A stretch of 64,000 bases of DNA from contig CAVZKL010000017.1 of NCBI GenBank assembly GCA_963775895.1, positions 64,001 through 128,000 on the forward strand. The letters run 5' to 3'. Positions 36,778 through 44,588 of the stretch are shown here, piece after piece. Position 1 is the first letter of the stretch; the number at the start of each line of letters is the position of its first letter. Below the pieces are notes generated by a model. The model made no database searches and was not told the origin of the DNA. It worked only from the letters and a program-made list of their open reading frames with translations. The position numbers and the translations under genes were made by a program. Source of the stretch: Candidatus Bathyarchaeota archaeon. Its GTDB lineage: Archaea > Thermoproteota > Bathyarchaeia > Bathyarchaeales > Bathycorpusculaceae.

Positions 36778-38197
36778 ATGTCATCTGAAAACGTTCATCT
36801 CTTCAACACTCTTGCGCGATCCAAAGAAAGATTCATCGCAATAGAACACGGGCACGTGAAAATGTACACCTGCGGGCCCACAGTCTATGACTATAGTCAC
36901 ATAGGAAATATGCGGGCCTTCATTTTCGAGGATCTGCTCAAGAGATGGTTAGAATACAGAGGATTCAAGGTCACGCACGTAATGAACCTGACGGATGTTG
37001 ACGATCGAACTATTAAAGCCGCCAGAATCCAAGGCATCCCCATCAAACAACATGCGGAACGCTTCATACAAGTGTTCTTCGAAGATGTAACGACATTGGG
37101 AATTGAGAGAGCAGACATCTATCCGAAGGCAACAGACCACATTCCCGAAATGGTTGTACTCGTCAAGAAGCTTATCGATAAGGGATATGCATATCGAAGT
37201 GAGGATGGCTCAATATATTTCAGCATTTCAAAATTCAAAGACTACGGCAAACTCGCCAGAATCCAAGTCAGTGAACTCAAGGCTGGCGCCAGAGTGAAAG
37301 TCGACGATTATGAGAAGGAGGAAGCCTCTGACTTCGTACTGTGGAAAGCATGGGATCCGGAGGATGGCGATGTTTTCTGGAACACGGAAATCGGCAAAGG
37401 CAGACCGGGCTGGCATATAGAGTGTTCGGCAATGTCGATGAAGTATTTGGGAGAAACGTTTGATATTCACTGCGGCGGGGTGGACAACTTGTTTCCTCAT
37501 CATGAGAACGAGATCGCTCAGAGCGAGGCGGCTACTGGAAAGAAGTTCGTGAATTACTGGCTCCACAACGAGCATTTGCTGGTTGAGGGCAAGAAGATGG
37601 CGAAGAGGCTCGGTAACTATTTCACGGTGAGGGACCTAACCGCGAAAGGCTACGATCCTATCGCAATACGTTACCTTATGATATCTACGCACTATCGACA
37701 GCAGTTGAACTTCACTTTCGAAGGGTTAGATGCGGCTGGGAAAACGCTTGATCGTTTGAGAAATTTCATGAATCGCTTGATGGAAGCTGATGGAAAAGCA
37801 AGTGGCCATGCGCTCCAGCAGCTCGTAGAGACTGTGCGGACAGGCTTTGAAGAAGCGATGGACGACGACTTGAACATAAGTGTCGCTCTAGCCCATCTGT
37901 TTGACTTTGTTCGGGACGTGAACAACCTGTTGGACAAAGGTCTATTAGGCAGGGAAGAGGCAAAGGAAATTTGGTACGATGATGCTTAGGTTTGACAAGG
38001 TTCTGGGCGTGATCGGTGAAGTCGAGAAAGGCCAGGAGCTGTCTGACGAGGCGCAGCAGCTCATTCGCAAACGTGAAGAGGCGCGAAAGGCCAAGGACTG
38101 GAAAACCGCTGATCAGATACGAGAGCAGCTCAAGGCCATGGGCATCGTGATCGAGGATACGGCGCAAGGTGTCAAATGGAAAAAGGAAAACCGCTGA
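36778..38197 (+). CDS. cysS: Cysteine-tRNA ligase (frameshift near 37970)
   Basis: CGPTVY, HIGN, PGWHIEC, FPHHENE, KMAKR, WKTADQIR. Confidence 0.95.
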
Positions 38198-38816: not shown

Positions 38817-39621
38817 TCACAGTTGACTTTTGCCCAGGCTGTTCCAATCGTCGGTGCCGTATTTCTCAAGGCAAAGTTTGTCTGAAACCTCTATCTCGAG
38901 ACTCGTCAGCTTTCCAGGTGCAAGTCGGATATCCAGCGCCCGGTTGAACCCTTCGATCAGCGCCTCGGTGACTTCCGCGACTGTTGTTCTTTCCGTAATT
39001 CCTCGTCTAGCGACGTGATTCTTGTTCTTGGCAACGTCAACGACTTGTCTTAATCGTAGTTGCCCAAGGGACGCGGAGAAAAGTGAACATTTTCGTCAAG
39101 TTGACCTTCAGGAGAAGTGTGCCGTGCTGCAGGACGACTCCTTTCTTGTGGGCTTGAGCGCTGCCAGAAATCTTCTTTCCATTAATGGTGAGGTTTGGGC
39201 AGGTCTTCTCGTTGCCTCGGTTGAAATCTGCTTTTACGCCCAGTGTCCGAACGGCTTCGACCAACCCCGAGTAAATCTTGTTGTAGACTTCGTTGATGTC
39301 CTCAGTTCCTAGATCGTCTTTCTCGGCGACTACGCTATAGGTGATTTCATCGACTGCGTCATGATAAACGGCTCCTCCGCCGGTTATTCTCCTAACAACG
39401 TCAACGCCATGCGCTTTGCAGTTCTCTAAGTGGACCTCTTTTTCAACTTCTTGAAATCTTCCAATTGACACGGCGGAAGGGTTCCATCGGTAGAATCTTA
39501 TCGTGTTTGGAGCAAGGCCTCTCATCCTCGCCTGCAGGATTGATTCGTCAATTGCCATGTTTTCGAAGGCGTTGCGAGTCTCGATTTCGAGCAAGCGCCA
39601 AGTTGTCAAAGTGTTAACCAC
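38817..39621 (-). CDS. Lipoate-protein ligase A family (C-terminal frameshifts)
   Basis: NMAIDE, RRITGGGAVYHD, KKISGSAQ, LQHGTLL. Confidence 0.88.
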
Positions 39622-39662
39622 GGAAGGAAAATCAGATTGCTCTTAAGTATATTGCGATTCCT

Positions 39663-39714
39663 GGTTCTGTCAAGTCTCCGTCGGAAAAGGGTTCATGTAA
39701 AAATTCGTCGGATA
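39663..39714 (+). repeat. Left terminal inverted repeat
   Basis: GGTTCTGTCAAGTCTCCGTCGGA-N10-TGTAAAAATTCGTCGGATA. Confidence 0.9.
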
Positions 39715-39738
39715 CAAGCCGTTTGAAGCCATTCATGA

Positions 39739-39975
39739 TCAATCTCTGAACTTATTAAGTTTAATGTAGATGTACGCCGCAAGTCCGAAACCAGCAATCA
39801 TTAGAGCCAAGCCGAAGAGAAATCCGAAAGTATCAAATGGAATCGCGTAGTAAACTGAGTCGTACATTATCTTGCGGTTAGCCAGCCAATCTTCATAGAA
39901 CATGAGCATAAACAGCAAGCCGACAACTATGAGAATGATGGCGAGCACAACTCGTTTTCTACCTTTCTCATTCAC
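39739..39975 (-). CDS. Small two-TM membrane protein (transposon cargo)
   Basis: Two hydrophobic helices; lies inside the TIRs. Confidence 0.6.
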   Translation of the reverse strand: MNEKGRKRVVLAIILIVVGLLFMLMFYEDWLANRKIMYDSVYYAIPFDTFGFLFGLALMIAGFGLAAYIYIKLNKFRD

Positions 39976-39978
39976 TTA

Positions 39979-40224
39979 TTAACCCTCATCAAGTCCAAAC
40001 ATTCGTTTAACTGCTTTCCGAATGTCGGGTACACATACGAGAAAGAACATTATGATTAATGTTATGACTACTATAGCGGCTAAACTGTTGAAAAACTGAA
40101 TGAACCAATTAGTGCTACTGTAATACGCTTTCACAGCAAAATCGTACATTATCGCTGTGACAAATATCAGGAGGGCAATGAACAAAGAAACTTTGAACAA
40201 CGCTAGAAACTCAGCTTTCTTCAT
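39979..40224 (-). CDS. Small two-TM membrane protein (transposon cargo)
   Basis: Two hydrophobic helices; 3-nt gap to the next gene. Confidence 0.6.
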   Translation of the reverse strand: MKKAEFLALFKVSLFIALLIFVTAIMYDFAVKAYYSSTNWFIQFFNSLAAIVVITLIIMFFLVCVPDIRKAVKRMFGLDEG

Positions 40225-40414
40225 ATCACTCTTTTAGCACGTTATTGTGGCGACCCCTATCTAGTTTTCTGTATTTTTCTTCTGGCGACATGAGACTTGC
40301 CTTATCAAAGAAAACACACGAAGTACCAGAAGAGACAAGCTAGAAGAAAAGTAACAGGAACTCGTCATTAGGGCAGTAGAAAAATGGGGGATACAGGTAC
40401 GAATGTTCGAGGCA

Positions 40415-40669
40415 CTAGTACCTGTATCTTCTCTTTTTGGATTCTTTGTAGACCCAAAGAATTATCGCCGTAGCCACGAGAATATAGCCATCCGTAGTAA
40501 GCGATTGGTTTGCATTGAAACTTCGTATACCGATTCCTATGTACACAAGAGTCATGCCGAAGAACAGCAATAGCGCTAGGAAAGTCTTTGGGTTCTGCAG
40601 GTTTATACTCAGTCGTGTCATTCTCTTACTTCGTTCTATTCCTAGAAAATGACTCTTCCATTCATCCAC
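40415..40669 (-). CDS. Small two-TM membrane protein (transposon cargo)
   Basis: Two hydrophobic helices, basic C-terminal tail. Confidence 0.55.
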   Translation of the reverse strand: MDEWKSHFLGIERSKRMTRLSINLQNPKTFLALLLFFGMTLVYIGIGIRSFNANQSLTTDGYILVATAIILWVYKESKKRRYRY

Positions 40670-40806
40670 TCTAACTGCGCATAAGTTTAAATGCTAAGGT
40701 TAGCATTGTCCTTATTGGCATTAGTAGTTCAGAGTGGCGATGATATGAGCCATTCTCCAATTCTCATTCTGCTCTTTGACTATTTAAACACAGCAAAAAG
40801 TGGATT

Positions 40807-41954
40807 TTACAGGTCTTTTTGGGTCGCATTTTGAATTTTGGTCGAATTTTGAATCAGTGTTAACCATTTATTTTTTCCTTCTACCTTGATTCCGCAAGCT
40901 TCACTAGGCGTGTTACCTTCGAGTCCTTCATGAGCCCTAATGTAATTGTGAAAAATCTGATAACCTGTGAGAATCGGCGTATCATTCTTCTTGAGCCCAC
41001 GCATAGTTTTTTCTCTGTCTCTGATTTCACCATTCAACCTTTCCATTTTGTTGTTGTTTCTGTCTCCTCTAATCGTGATATGTCGTATGTGTTCGGTTCT
41101 TGGATAAGCTAAGGTTCGCCATTCTTTTTTGTACGCATCATGATATGTTGGTAAGCCGTCGGTTATCAGAGTCATGGGTTTCTTTCCCATCAATTGTCTC
41201 GCTCATCTTGAACAGTCTTCTTGCATCATGCTGGTGTTTGGTTTCTGCAACTTCCTGAGCAATCCAGAAACGAGTCTCATCATCCATCAAGGCGAAAAGA
41301 TATTTCAGGTCTCCCTTGATTTTCACGTATAATTCGTCTGCTCTCCAAGTGTCGCTTACGTTTGGAACAATTCTCTCGACGTAGTTTTTGCATCAGAGAG
41401 ACGTATTTGTTAATCCAATTATAGACGGTTTGGTGTGAGACTTCAACGCCTAGCAGTTTGAGAGATTTCATCGTGTTTCTTAATGATTCTCCGCTAAAAT
41501 AGAGTTGCATGGCAGAGGTGATGGCTTGAGGATTATGTTTCATCTTTTCAAAGCCTATGTTGAATGTGAAATAGTGCTTGCAGTCTTGGCAATAGAATTT
41601 CTGAATCTCACCACGCTTGTTCTTTCTTACTCCGTCTTTAACGATGTTTGATGAACCACAAAAGATGCATTCTGTCAAATTGTCTATGGGCTCGATTTTT
41701 CTGACTGATCTCTCTGAGTGAGACTGAAAACTCTACTGCAAAAATGTGCTTACACTTTACGTGACGATAAACGTGGTCTGGACATTCGCAGAACCATTCA
41801 TCTGAGACTTTGAAGACCTTGTATTTACCATGATTTGACTGAGATTTAACCGTGTAGGTGTTTGAGTCGATTCTTTTGATTTGGTTTGGTTGTTGTGCGA
41901 TTTCTTTTCCGCATTGTTCTCGCGTTCTTGGGATGTTGTCATTTCTATCGCCAT
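40807..41954 (-). CDS. IS6-family-like DDE transposase with N-terminal SWIM finger and zinc ribbon (several frameshifts)
   Basis: CECPDH..CKH (SWIM), CIFCGS..CQDC, VSHQTVYNW HTH, WRADE, YLFALMD, LITDG, NNKMERLNG. Confidence 0.85.
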
Positions 41955-41986
41955 ATAACCGTATATACAGCATAGTATTTATGCTT

Positions 41987-42024
41987 TACGGTTTAACAGT
42001 AAACCTTAAATACGGTAAACAGTA
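41987..42024. promoter_or_regulatory. Direct-repeat operator between divergent transposase and RHH genes
   Basis: TACGGTTTAACAGTA (41987) and TACGGTAAACAGTA (42011) flank TATA-like CTTAAATA. Confidence 0.5.
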
Positions 42025-42045
42025 TCTAGAATGATAGGTGATCGA

Positions 42046-42201
42046 ATGCCAAAGAAATGGACTCTTCTAATAGATGACGAATTGGATGAGAGATTCAGAA
42101 AAGCCGTGTTTGAGACAAAAGGAATGCACAAGGGCAATTTGACCGAAGCAATGGAAGAGGCGATGAGATGCTGGATAGAGCAACAAAAGAAGAAAAAATG
42201 A
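42046..42201 (+). CDS. Ribbon-helix-helix protein (51 aa, missing from the ORF track)
   Basis: Hand translation MPKKWTLLIDDELDERFRKAVFETKGMHKGNLTEAMEEAMRCWIEQQKKKK; AGGTGA RBS. Confidence 0.75.
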   Translation: MPKKWTLLIDDELDERFRKAVFETKGMHKGNLTEAMEEAMRCWIEQQKKKK

Positions 42202-42611
42202 AAAAGCGTGAAAAAGAGGCGGAAGAGCTTCTTACGGAGATAGATAGTCTCCGTAAAGATATAATGACAGAATTGGAAAGGGAAAAGGCATCACGATGGG
42301 CTAGTTCAAAAGATAAGAGCCGTCTGAAACGTTTTCGAGAATTATACACAATAAGCTTGATGCTCCTTGACCAGCGCATAAGAGACGAACTTTTCCTTGG
42401 CAAGTTGAAAGTGCAAGTGGATAACTTAAACGAAATGTTGCAGAAAATTGCTGAAAAAGTTGATGTTGACCTCTCCAGCCTAAAAACTGAGGTCGAAACA
42501 TTGCATAAGACCATACAAGAGCCCATGTTCGCCGAAGTTGCTCAATTCGTAAAATTCGTGAAAAGTAATATCGAACAATCTAAAAAAGCAGGAGAACAAT
42601 ATGTCGAGTGA
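42198..42611 (+). CDS. Hypothetical coiled-coil protein (transposon cargo)
   Basis: ATGA overlap with the RHH gene; charged helical sequence. Confidence 0.6.
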   Translation: MKKREKEAEELLTEIDSLRKDIMTELEREKASRWASSKDKSRLKRFRELYTISLMLLDQRIRDELFLGKLKVQVDNLNEMLQKIAEKVDVDLSSLKTEVETLHKTIQEPMFAEVAQFVKFVKSNIEQSKKAGEQYVE

Positions 42612-42873
42612 CATGCTTGGAGAGATTATCAATACTCTCCAAGAGCTTAGGCGAATGCATCAGTTGAATTTTGAGCTTCTTGAAGAATTAAATGTAGCTT
42701 GTGCCTATCTTCTAGAAAACCATGCAAGCCTACCTAACCAAGAGAAGCTTGCGTCTCTTCTCTCGAAAGCTATGACACTTCTCAAAGAAATCAACACTGA
42801 ACCCCTATCCGACGAATTTTTACAGCGAAAGAAATCCGACAAAGACTTTACAGAACCCGATTCCTCATCTTGA
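42601..42873 (+). CDS. Hypothetical helical protein reading through the right TIR
   Basis: Overlaps the upstream gene; C-terminal LSDEFLQRKKSDKDFTEP is TIR-encoded. Confidence 0.55.
   Translation: MSSDMLGEIINTLQELRRMHQLNFELLEELNVACAYLLENHASLPNQEKLASLLSKAMTLLKEINTEPLSDEFLQRKKSDKDFTEPDSSS
42806..42857 (-). repeat. Right terminal inverted repeat
   Basis: Reverse complement GGTTCTGTAAAGTCTTTGTCGGA-N10-TGTAAAAATTCGTCGGATA. Confidence 0.9.
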
Positions 42874-43476: not shown

Positions 43477-44588
43477 TTGCCGACAAGGGTCATAATGCTC
43501 GTTGACTTGGACTACTTCTACGCCCAGAGTGAGGAGCTCAGAAATCCTTCTCTGAAAAACAAGCCAGTCGTTGTTTGTGTCTTCTCAGGACGCACCGAAG
43601 AAAGCGGTGCTGTTAGCACCGCGAATTACATCGCACGTGGTTATGGAGTCAGGTCCGGTATGCCAATCTACTTGGCGAAGAAGAAGCTCGAGAGCGTCAA
43701 TGCCGCATTCCTGCCTGTTGACGAGAAACTTTACACGGAGACATCCGACAAAGTGATGCAGGTGCTGAGAGTCTACGCTGATGAATTTGAGCAAGTGGGT
43801 ATTGATGAGGCCTATCTTGACGTCACGAAACGGGTGCAAGCGGAGTTTTCAAAACGCCAAAAATCTCGCTAACACGATAAAGAGTGAGCTGCGCAATCAA
43901 CTAGGGCTGACTTGTTCCATCGGGGTGGGGCCGAACAAACTTGTCGCAAAGATCGCAGCAGACGAAAAGAAGCCTGACGGATTGACAATCGTGGAACCGG
44001 ATAGAGTCAAGAGGGTTCTTAGAACCTCTTCCTGCAAATCGTCTTCTCGGCGTGGGCGTGAAAACTGCGAAAAAAATGGCGGCTATGAACATCTGTACGA
44101 TTGGCGATCTTGCAAAGTATGATGTTCAGAGACTGATTTCCACGTTTGGCAGGACTCTCGGGACGTACTTTCACAACGCCTCCATTGGAGTTGACAATGA
44201 GCCTGTAAAAGAGAGAGGTGAGGCAGGGTCACTGAGTAGAATTGCCACTCTCATGCAAAACACCAGCGACTCGAGCGTTGTCCTTGAGAAGGCCAACGAA
44301 CTCTGTGTCGACCTGTATGCAAGTATCGCTGAGCAGAAACTGACGTTCAAATCGGTCAGCATAATCTTGATTGCCAAAGACCTGAGTGTCTACAGTCGAT
44401 CCAGAACACTTGAGAGCTCATCGAACAGCTTGGAAATGATGGAGAAAGTTGCCGGAGAGCTTTTTGAAGCGTTCCTGAGCGAAAACCCCATTGAACTTCG
44501 AAGGGTCGGGGTGAAGCTTTCAGGTCTTTCGGGCATTGGAAAGGGTCAGAAGCAGATTACTGGCTTTTTCGGTTCTCCACAAGACTAG
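43477..44588 (+). CDS. dinB: Y-family DNA polymerase IV (two frameshifts)
   Basis: VDLDYFYAQ, STANYIAR, GIDEAYLD, SIGVGPNKLVAKIA, RRVGV. Confidence 0.92.

What the first reader, a model, noticed from the sequence alone, without database searches (positions are those of the whole stretch)
39655..42865. Complete IS6-like cargo transposon with bipartite TIRs, 8-bp TSD and SWIM-finger transposase
Seen: a 3195-bp unit bounded by 52-bp inverted ends. Each end has an outer 23-bp box (20/23 identical, starting GGTTCTGT), a 10-bp variable spacer and an identical inner 19-bp box TGTAAAAATTCGTCGGATA; both boxes share a TGT-N8/9-GTCGGA core. The unit is flanked by a perfect CGATTCCT duplication. A single central transposase carries extra SWIM and zinc-ribbon domains, with passenger genes on both sides. 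Known: classical IS6 members are about 0.8 kb, have short GG-starting IRs and 8-bp TSDs, and carry no cargo. Inference: a little-described archaeal unit-transposon family derived from IS6 that ferries small genes; the intact TSD and identical inner boxes suggest recent insertion.
Basis: partly seen in the sequence, partly recalled or inferred. Interest (0 to 1): 0.82.

Follow-up and report, generated by a model that had tools for sequence, protein, structure and literature searches.

The report
Archaeal cargo transposon with end-recognition code
This is a real 3.2-kb jumping gene from a large, apparently undescribed archaeal branch of IS6-like transposons that carry extra genes, tend to land just upstream of promoters, and have end sequences that can be predicted from a few amino acids of their own transposase.

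Summary
Confirmed: a 3,195-bp unit with two-box ends and an 8-bp duplication. The exact empty site occurs in contigs of three independent studies.

It belongs to a large archaeal family: 156 distinct elements with ends and duplications, 2.1-8.1 kb when the transposase is full length, usually with a small divergent gene and changing cargo, often restriction-modification. Insertions cluster at a fixed distance upstream of BRE/TATA-like motifs: 35 of 110 target loci against about 2 expected. This copy sits 2-3 bp off that register. The scan had already noted the family and the promoter habit on other DNA.

New here: each end box has two sub-motifs that co-vary, one with helix-turn-helix residues and one with zinc-ribbon residues. 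Arg112 goes with G in 58 of 58 elements, and no other residue does (0 of 81). This survives phylogenetic independent-pair tests, cross-domain controls are null, and the helix rule partly extends to classical bacterial IS6 elements.

This copy's transposase has at least three frameshifts, probably assembly errors. Ten literature searches found no description; ISfinder was not searchable. Verdict: new variant of the IS6 kind.

The parts
39655..39662 (.). target-site duplication CGATTCCT, left copy
   Evidence: single copy at the empty site
39663..39685 (+). outer box of the end downstream of the transposase: GGTTC tip, motif 1 TGTCAA, motif 2 CGTCGGA
39696..39714 (+). inner box: motif 1 TGTAAA, 4-bp gap, motif 2 CGTCGGAT; 28 bp from the outer TG, the family's commonest spacing
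39739..39975 (-). cargo ORF, 78 aa, hydrophobic (likely membrane); unique among 156 elements
39979..40224 (-). cargo ORF, 81 aa, hydrophobic; unique among 156 elements
40415..40669 (-). cargo ORF, 84 aa, hydrophobic; homologues in 2 other elements
40807..41973 (-). transposase (SWIM - zinc ribbon - HTH - DDE) in 4 pieces, extra bases near 41708, 41390, 41197; start codon uncertain (41973 in frame, or 41954/41942 with one more shift); intact homologues mostly 355-400 aa, 79-92% identical piecewise
41728..41808 (-). SWIM zinc finger (CxC...CxH)
   Evidence: E 0.0016; residues nearly invariant; model residues 1-78 align to ZSWIM8 at Z 6.8
41565..41669 (-). zinc ribbon carrying the residues that co-vary with motif 2 (V98, D100, K112, Y121 here)
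41418..41438 (-). start of the HTH recognition helix, whose residues co-vary with motif 1 (S166, H167, Q168, N172 here)
41975..42013 (.). imperfect palindrome in the gap between the divergent genes; candidate back-to-back promoter/operator (inferred)
   Evidence: I19
42031..42201 (+). 56-aa ribbon-helix-helix-like gene divergent from the transposase; likely regulator (inferred)
   Evidence: RHH_6, E 0.0014, under the cut-off; homologues in 17 elements including this one
42168..42611 (+). 147-aa helical ORF; homologue in 1 other element
42601..42873 (+). 90-aa ORF that reads through the end and stops in the flank; family present in 24 elements; function unassigned
42806..42824 (-). inner box of the end upstream of the transposase
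42835..42857 (-). outer box of the end upstream of the transposase
42858..42865 (.). target-site duplication, right copy
39638..39654 (-). host BRE/TATA-like motif (CAA...CTTAAG) upstream of the lipoate-ligase gene (start 39621), left intact by the insertion; score 8.0 at offset +2; CTTAAG conserved in G005 and G006

Best explanation
A single-transposase DDE cargo transposon of an archaeal IS6-related family. SHOWN: it inserted as one unit, making an 8-bp duplication, and the family has two-box ends, variable cargo and a divergent small gene. INFERRED (about 0.8): each end carries two binding boxes, and each box is read by two domains. The HTH recognition helix reads motif 1 (TGTxxx, the classical IS6 end). 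The zinc-ribbon beta-sheet reads motif 2 (CGxxxxT), an add-on. Changing one residue goes with changing one base in all boxes, so many semi-private transposase/end pairs exist (39 five-position codes among 156 elements). The inner boxes lie whole helical turns away (about 28, 37 or 48 bp), as expected if they must sit on one face of the DNA. INFERRED (about 0.75): the transpososome chooses targets immediately upstream of the BRE/TATA core promoter. This spares the host gene and recreates the target, giving stacks of different elements. SPECULATIVE (about 0.4): the N-terminal SWIM finger, the only unassigned domain, is the tether to TBP/TFB. The chemistry is presumably IS6-like replicative cointegrate formation (from family knowledge, untested). 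This copy's frameshifts are more likely assembly errors (about 0.65) than real decay.
For: Unit and empty site. Family: 105 of 170 loci gave an 8-bp TSD plus TIR of at least 15/22, against 7 in a reversed-flank control; 68 of 122 further copies passed at least 17/22, against 0 in control. Inner box at 290 of 312 ends; spacings 26-29 (183), 36-39 (93), 47-49 (11), 69 (3). Code: corrected mutual information over all well-filled columns of 139 intact transposases put residues 166/168/172 on motif 1 and 98/100/112/121 on motif 2. Tables: R112-G 58/58 and 0/81; T121-T 29/29; R/K/H121-G 28/29; K/R/H100-C 30/32; Q168-A/C 54/55; R168-G 18/19; N172-A 73/73; M/R172-C 29/29. Trained on 89, tested on 50: 35, 44, 46 and 48 correct at four positions, against 13, 32, 12 and 22 for the nearest catalytic-domain neighbour; each was the best column of all. 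Independent pairs on a tree without the two domains: 15.9/17, 10.7/11, 11/11, 9.6/10, 10/12, 12.2/13 same direction; three cross-domain controls p 0.25-1. The model (pLDDT 92) puts these residues on the ribbon's three strands and at the start of the recognition helix. The window's own residues, left out of the tables, fit its boxes. Classical IS6 elements: R172 with C at the left end 12/12, other residues with A 2/2. Promoters: a matrix built only from 35 G000 tRNA upstream regions scores 6 or more at offsets -1/0 in 28 and 29 of 131 sites, against a mean of 1.2 elsewhere; 35 of 110 distinct loci against 2.1, max 7. 25 of 155 elements abut another end; in 16 of 23 one-sided cases the promoter motif is on the free side, in 0 on the stacked side.
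Against: No binding or transposition assay exists. Three positions were poorly predicted out of sample: motif-1 pos 5 37/50 (majority 38), motif-2 pos 6 28/50 (rank 4), pos 7 24/50 (majority 24). Columns were chosen on all 139 rows, test rows included (the pattern was first seen on set A alone), and groupings such as R/K/H were made after seeing the tables. On a tree from the two domains alone, few pairs remain for the ribbon (R112 3/3, T121 about 2/2; not significant), and R168 weakens to p 0.06 on the whole-protein tree. In classical IS6, the residue-168 rule held in only 7 of 10. 75 of 110 loci miss the strict promoter score. This copy's motif is at offset +2, not -1/0. An outward ORF within 26-70 bp was only modestly commoner on the promoter side (24 vs 14 of 63). 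Three frameshifts in 1.1 kb exceed the genome-wide rate of about 0.2 per kb.
Confidence: 0.78

Rival explanations
1. The residue-base link is shared ancestry: ends, zinc ribbon and HTH are inherited as a block while the catalytic domain recombines, so any lineage marker would predict the ends.
For: On the ZR+HTH-only tree few independent changes remain for the ribbon residues. Many state changes on the catalytic-domain tree (19-52) suggest recombination.
Against: Block inheritance predicts cross-domain correlation, which is absent (Q168 vs motif 2: 21/34/37/47). The nearest neighbour by the same domain minus those residues predicts worse (26, 37, 19, 27 of 50, against 35, 44, 46, 48). The signal sits on specific residues with the expected chemistry (Arg/Lys/His opposite G; established knowledge) and partly recurs in bacterial IS6 elements about 25-30% identical.
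Confidence: 0.12
2. Promoter proximity comes from selection or DNA accessibility (AT-rich intergenic DNA): insertions are random, and only harmless ones survive.
For: Only about a third of loci reach the strict score. There is no orientation bias (43 vs 56), unlike TnGBS. Surviving insertions are a selected sample.
Against: The peak is two bases wide (25 and 23 at offsets -1 and 0; 0 and 1 at -2 and +1), though sites further upstream would be just as harmless. The same 8 bases are re-used by different elements, and the same promoters in different genomes (11 shared loci).
Confidence: 0.17
3. The target signal is direct sequence recognition of an AT-rich motif (CAAnnYTTAWA) by the transposase itself, with no role for TBP/TFB.
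For: The site logo is strong at +2/+3 (A 0.82, 0.88) and +7..+9 (sites pre-selected by score). This copy keeps CAA at +1..+3 while its TATA is shifted.
Against: The motif matches a matrix learnt from host tRNA promoters and is needed on one side only, which suits an asymmetric protein tether. This is not decisive.
Confidence: 0.35
4. This particular copy is a dead relic with real frameshifts.
For: 3 shifts in 1.1 kb against about 0.2 per kb genome-wide. No read or contig at 99% or more identity spans them.
Against: Neighbouring host genes are broken alike: lplA 3 indels, dinB 2-3 frame changes, cysS split. 33 of 166 compared entries (some genes counted more than once, the transposase three times) are shifted, including genes that look essential. 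Catalytic residues and boxes are intact.
Confidence: 0.35

Closest known systems
IS6/IS26 family (IS26, IS257, IS1216, IS6100, IS240; PMC7986276 and PMC6807381, passages read)
   Same: DDE_Tnp_IS240 domain; best NCBIfam model is IS6 (107-124 bits, cut-off 125); the first 8 bases here equal those of the published TIR consensus GGTTCTGTTGCAAA; GG tip, G7, 8-bp TSD; same HTH helix, and partly the same residue-base rule.
   Different: 2.1-8.1 kb rather than about 0.8 kb; 370-385 aa with SWIM and zinc ribbon; two-box ends with a second motif; internal cargo and a divergent small gene; the E-DH---K signature His is absent; promoter-linked sites.
Long clostridial IS6 clades (ISCpe7 group; ISTet2 group) and ISDsp3
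   Same: N-terminal zinc finger(s); ISCpe7-type proteins are the best plasmid hits (about 32% over 63%); ISDsp3 is the one listed IS6 element with a passenger gene.
   Different: 1.2-1.8 kb, ends rarely start GG, no SWIM mentioned in either review (0 occurrences), no variable cargo.
TnGBS/ISLre2 and ISKra4 (p-MULT 3/4; PMC3942029, passages and section 12 read)
   Same: DDE elements, some with cargo, that insert at a fixed distance upstream of promoters.
   Different: Mutator-type transposase, sigma-A promoters, 15-17 bp from the -35 box, mostly oriented. For archaea the paper reports only an AT-rich duplicated motif for ISH6.
Yeast Ty3 targeting via TFIIIB (PDB 7q5b title; otherwise recalled)
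   Same: Integration positioned by a TBP/TFIIB-type complex would be the analogue of the tether model.
   Different: Retrotransposon integrase, Pol III genes; the tether here is unproven.
Heimdallarchaeia aloposons (seen only as cited in PMC11529989)
   Same: Archaeal transposons with cargo genes.
   Different: Recalled as 11-15 kb with a giant protein and ParA/ParB; not compared by sequence here.

Membership tests
IS6/IS26 | DDE transposase with HTH before an RNase H-like catalytic domain | tested here: met
   D199, D258, E297 invariant in 139 of 139; PF13610 over the cut-off in 5 of 5; integrase-core fold Z about 15
IS6/IS26 | NCBIfam IS6 model NF033587 over its cut-off | tested here: inconclusive
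   best model for 5 of 5 homologues but 107-124 bits against a cut-off of 125
IS6/IS26 | TIR begins GG, G at position 7, cTGT motif | tested here: met
   GG 303 of 312 ends, G7 310 of 312, GGTTCTGT 177 of 312 (a G start at one end was a selection filter)
IS6/IS26 | 8-bp target duplication | tested here: met
   149 of 156 have 8 bp and 7 have 9 bp; lengths 5-10 were scanned, only 8-9
IS6/IS26 | about 0.8 kb, one ORF of 213-254 aa filling the element, short single TIR | tested here: not met
   151 elements with a full-length transposase region span 2129-8093 bp, median 3442; inner box at 290 of 312 ends
IS6/IS26 in the strict sense of Harmer and Hall | signature His in E-DH---K / E-SH---R | tested here: not met
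   Asn in 134 of 139, His in 3
IS6/IS26 | transposition by cointegrate formation | not testable with these tools
   two identical copies in G350 lack matching flanking repeats, which fits a rearrangement between copies but proves nothing
p-MULT 3 (TnGBS/ISLre2) | Mutator-type transposase | tested here: not met
   IS256/ISLre2 models score 15-20 bits against cut-offs of 150-200
p-MULT 3 (TnGBS/ISLre2) | insertion at a fixed distance upstream of promoters | tested here: met
   (an archaeal-type motif; an analogy, not membership)
ISfinder named groups (ISA1214, ISC1217 and other ISNCY) | sequence match to catalogued elements | not testable with these tools
   ISfinder not available; Filee 2007 not held; one paper mentions ISA1214, seen as a listing only

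The most novel reading that the evidence does not exclude
A widespread archaeal transposon family that docks on the TBP-TFB core promoter, as Ty3 does on TFIIIB, and stacks defence cargo there. Its transposase reads its ends with a modular two-domain, roughly one-residue-one-base code. That gives dozens of mutually orthogonal transposase/end pairs, and the HTH half of the code also explains the end sequences of classical IS6/IS26 elements.
Probability: 0.5. Interest if true: 0.88.

Novelty: new variant of a known kind. Interest (0 to 1): 0.8.

Why it matters
A 2019 survey (PMC6563490, passage) states that transposons carrying passenger genes had not been detected in archaea. This family is abundant (156 distinct elements from a limited sample) and moves restriction-modification and other defence-like genes. 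Fixed-distance insertion at BRE/TATA would be an archaeal counterpart of promoter-guided integration in yeast and Firmicutes, and a natural way to map promoters in uncultured archaea. The residue-base table turns the open question of how IS6-family transposases recognise their ends into single-substitution predictions. No solved relative was found by sequence. It also points to a zinc-ribbon beta-sheet as a sequence-specific DNA reader.

Tried and rejected
Other copies or MITEs in G000: none.

Multi-copy spread: no two of the 156 delimited elements were at least 90% identical over 60% of their length. One identical pair in G350 lay outside that set because it has no matching duplications.

Neighbours avoiding the same code: 2 of 20 tandem junctions share a code against 7% of random pairs, so no avoidance is shown (5 junctions without an inner box were dropped).

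Internal relic ends: 27 of 156 against 12 shuffled, weak.

Orientation bias to the promoter: none.

Complex prediction of SWIM (1-86) with TFB core and TBP of G000: no answer, score 0.00; no evidence either way.

First structure model from 29 close sequences was poor (pLDDT 58) and was replaced. No PDB relative by sequence. Atlas look-up of the 90-aa read-through ORF: best 0.85, hypothetical.

A SWIM-less relative in G000 (L266) showed no clear ends, so the test 'no SWIM, no promoter targeting' could not be run.

No sequencing run held more than 0.12 of the stretch, so the frameshifts could not be checked against source reads.

4 of 18 classical IS6 loci gave no TIR pair in the fetched range, including the probable IS26 and ISCpe7.

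Literature searches that found no description of this family, its promoter habit or the code. Most subscription papers, all supplements and ISfinder were not seen.
Full report
OBSERVATION. The unit is exactly as described: 39663-42857, CGATTCCT on both sides, outer boxes 20/23, inner boxes 19/19, 10-bp spacer. It is AT-richer than its flanks and single in G000. Public contigs from 3 of 4 laid runs (3 studies) join 39654 to 42858 with 8 letters fitting either side, which is the exact empty site. G006 and G005 of the same genus also lack it. The host is most likely a Bathyarchaeia archaeon, inferred from named homologues. The element lies between the divergent lipoate-ligase and JAB-domain genes.

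TRANSPOSASE. It is on the minus strand in four pieces, with extra bases near 41708, 41390 and 41197. A search with the last piece among longer proteins gave 3518 hits, the best mostly 355-400 aa; a profile found 700 clusters at 50% identity with E up to 1e-30. The domain order is SWIM, zinc ribbon, HTH, DDE. A model from 150 sequences has pLDDT 92 and an integrase-type core (Z about 15). The frameshifts are probably assembly errors: lplA has 3 indels against relatives' contigs, dinB 2-3 and cysS 1, and 33 of 166 compared entries are shifted (with some genes counted more than once). But the genome-wide rate is only about 0.2 per kb, and no source reads were available, so I put this at 0.65.

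FAMILY. I scanned 170 transposase loci from genome, metagenome and viral collections (each capped at the best 80) for a flanking duplication plus inverted ends. 105 passed at 15/22 or better, against 7 controls, and 100 (97 distinct) passed the stricter filter. A second set of 122 copies from class- and phylum-wide searches gave 68 against 0 controls. Merged with the window: 156 distinct elements, 149 with 8-bp and 7 with 9-bp duplications. The 151 with a full transposase region span 2129-8093 bp; no bare IS-sized form appeared. Named hosts are mostly Bathyarchaeia, also Nitrososphaeria, Methanoperedens and Asgard archaea; a few contigs in bacterial-labelled bins may be misbinned. 140 of 156 have a small ORF divergent from the transposase, drawn from several unrelated families. 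Their RHH or AbrB look is my reading of the sequences: at E 1e-5 only 1 of 8 representatives had a Pfam hit, a zinc ribbon; the window's own hits RHH_6 at E 0.0014. Cargo varies. Of 90 ORFs scanned (a chosen subset), the recurrent named ones are restriction-modification parts (Eco57I-type in a 15-element cluster, N6/N4 methylases, HsdS, GmrSD, HNH, BsaWI, CfrBI, EcoRI methylase), plus DprA, KwaB, an AbiEii-type ATPase and proteases; most have no family. The window's cargo is three small hydrophobic ORFs and two helical ORFs, one reading out through the end.

ENDS AND CODE. An inner box follows the outer one at 290 of 312 ends, at spacings near 28, 37 or 48 bp (in set A 183 of 192 against 6 shuffled). 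Each box has motif 1 (TGTxxx) and motif 2 (CGxxxxT). The variable bases are 93% alike between the two ends of an element and 60% between elements. In 139 intact transposases (of 155), corrected mutual information assigns motif 1 to HTH residues 166, 168, 172 and motif 2 to ribbon residues 98, 100, 112, 121 (numbering of the L036 fragment, P0003 minus one). The tables are nearly deterministic: R112-G 58/58 and 0/81, T121-T 29/29, R/K/H121-G 28/29, K/R/H100-C 30/32, Q168-A/C 54/55, R168-G 18/19, N172-A 73/73, M/R172-C 29/29. Learnt on 89 elements and applied to 50 others (median 68% catalytic-domain identity to the nearest training row), four positions gave 35, 44, 46 and 48 correct, each the best column. 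The nearest catalytic-domain neighbour gave 13, 32, 12 and 22, and the majority base 26, 37, 9 and 16. Three positions did not beat or barely beat the baseline. Independent pairs on a tree without the two domains agree almost always (for example 15.9 of 17, 11 of 11, 12.2 of 13), and cross-domain controls are null. A tree of the two domains alone leaves too few ribbon pairs to test. Caveats: column choice used all rows, and residue groupings were made after the fact. In the model these residues lie on the ribbon's three strands (99, 101, 113, 122 in P0003) and at the start of the recognition helix; I could not inspect side-chain orientation. The window's residues (V98, D100, K112, Y121, Q168, N172) predict TGT(A/C)AA and CGTCGGA, which is what its boxes read. 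In 14 of 18 classical IS6 loci with a TIR pair, R172 went with C at the left end in 12 of 12 (right end 11 of 12) and other residues with A in 2 of 2; the 168 rule held in 7 of 10, and E168 went with C in 4 of 4. These lack the ribbon, and their end-to-end identity fades soon after base 14-17. Tandem neighbours do not avoid sharing a code.

TARGETS. Reconstructed empty sites showed CAA..YTTAWA on one flank (seen before I looked up earlier notes on promoters). A matrix built only from 35 tRNA upstream regions of G000 scores 6 or more at offsets -1 and 0 in 28 and 29 of 131 sites, against a mean of 1.2 at offsets 20-189. Counting one element per locus gives 35 of 110 against 2.1. This puts the TATA-like box 6-7 bases past the duplication, with the BRE-like bases abutting it. 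There is no orientation bias. 25 of 155 elements abut another end at the same 8 bases, with the motif on the free side (16 of 23 against 0). Different elements hit the same promoter in different genomes (11 shared loci). Gene starts 26-70 bp out are only modestly enriched (24 vs 14 of 63). The window's own motif scores 8.0 at offset +2, is conserved in G005 and G006, and precedes the lipoate-ligase start by 34 bp, so it follows the habit loosely.

MECHANISM. Shown: unit insertion, 8-bp duplication, family anatomy, the statistical code and the site bias. Inferred: direct two-domain reading of four boxes (0.8); active promoter-relative targeting rather than selection (0.75-0.8); the divergent gene as autoregulator. 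Speculative: a SWIM-TBP/TFB tether (0.4), against direct readout of the AT-rich motif (0.35). Cointegrate chemistry is assumed from IS6 (PMC7986276, passages) and untested.

KNOWN SYSTEMS. It works like IS6 at the tip: same domain, GGTTCTGT equal to the first 8 bases of the published consensus (PMC6807381, passage), 8-bp duplication. It fails the size, single-ORF and signature-His criteria and sits just under the NCBIfam cut-off, so I call it IS6-related rather than a member in the strict sense. The IS6 reviews list one passenger-carrying member and zinc fingers only in clostridial clades; SWIM occurs 0 times. PMC6563490 (passages) says passenger-carrying transposons were not detected in archaea. 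PMC11529989 (passages) cites aloposons and has 0 occurrences of IS6. PMC13343696 (passages) has no SWIM or passenger mention. Promoter targeting has a bacterial precedent in TnGBS/ISLre2 (PMC3942029, section 12). Ten searches found no description (listed under Tried and rejected). ISfinder, Filee 2007, subscription papers and supplements were not seen, and element tables in supplements could list members.

EARLIER SCAN NOTES. Twelve notes on other genomes describe the family, eight of them the TATA habit. They are unchecked repeats, not support. Two word searches found none on the residue-base code, and none was near this locus.

VERDICT. Real, a new variant of the IS6 kind; interest 0.8, mainly for the testable recognition code and promoter-linked insertion.

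Noticed in passing
window 36778-38197, 38900-39621, 43477-44588: cysS, lplA and dinB are split by frameshifts, and 33 of 166 compared G000 entries are shifted: the assembly carries indel errors, so 'broken gene' findings in this genome need caution.
   Followed up: yes
L266:5111-8824 (G000:C13): A second, SWIM-less IS6-like transposase (327 aa) directly behind what reads like a methylase plus specificity-subunit pair (my reading; not scanned); no ends found.
   Followed up: partly
window 42601-42873: A conserved ORF family (24 elements) reads out through the transposon end and takes its stop codon from the target; four such families, 40 cases.
   Followed up: partly
L292:5242-9268 and L293 (G350:C1): Two identical 4.0-kb copies in one complete genome, without matching flanking repeats at either copy.
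   Followed up: partly
run X2, table 5c: A contig joins a right end to a left end across 8 bases: a tandem junction or a circle junction, not told apart.
   Followed up: no
L033, L034, L035 (G001, G002, G008): The lplA-JAB gap holds about 2-2.5 kb of other DNA in these same-genus genomes, without a match to this transposase.
   Followed up: no
L233, L235, L236, L237, L240; L269, L272, L274, L275, L277, L280: Two promoter hot spots hit repeatedly by different elements in different genomes, each with a palindromic operator-like sequence downstream of the TATA motif.
   Followed up: partly
L196, L205 (viral contigs): Family members with ends and duplications also sit on contigs classed as viral (L205 with a truncated transposase), a possible route between cells.
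   Followed up: no
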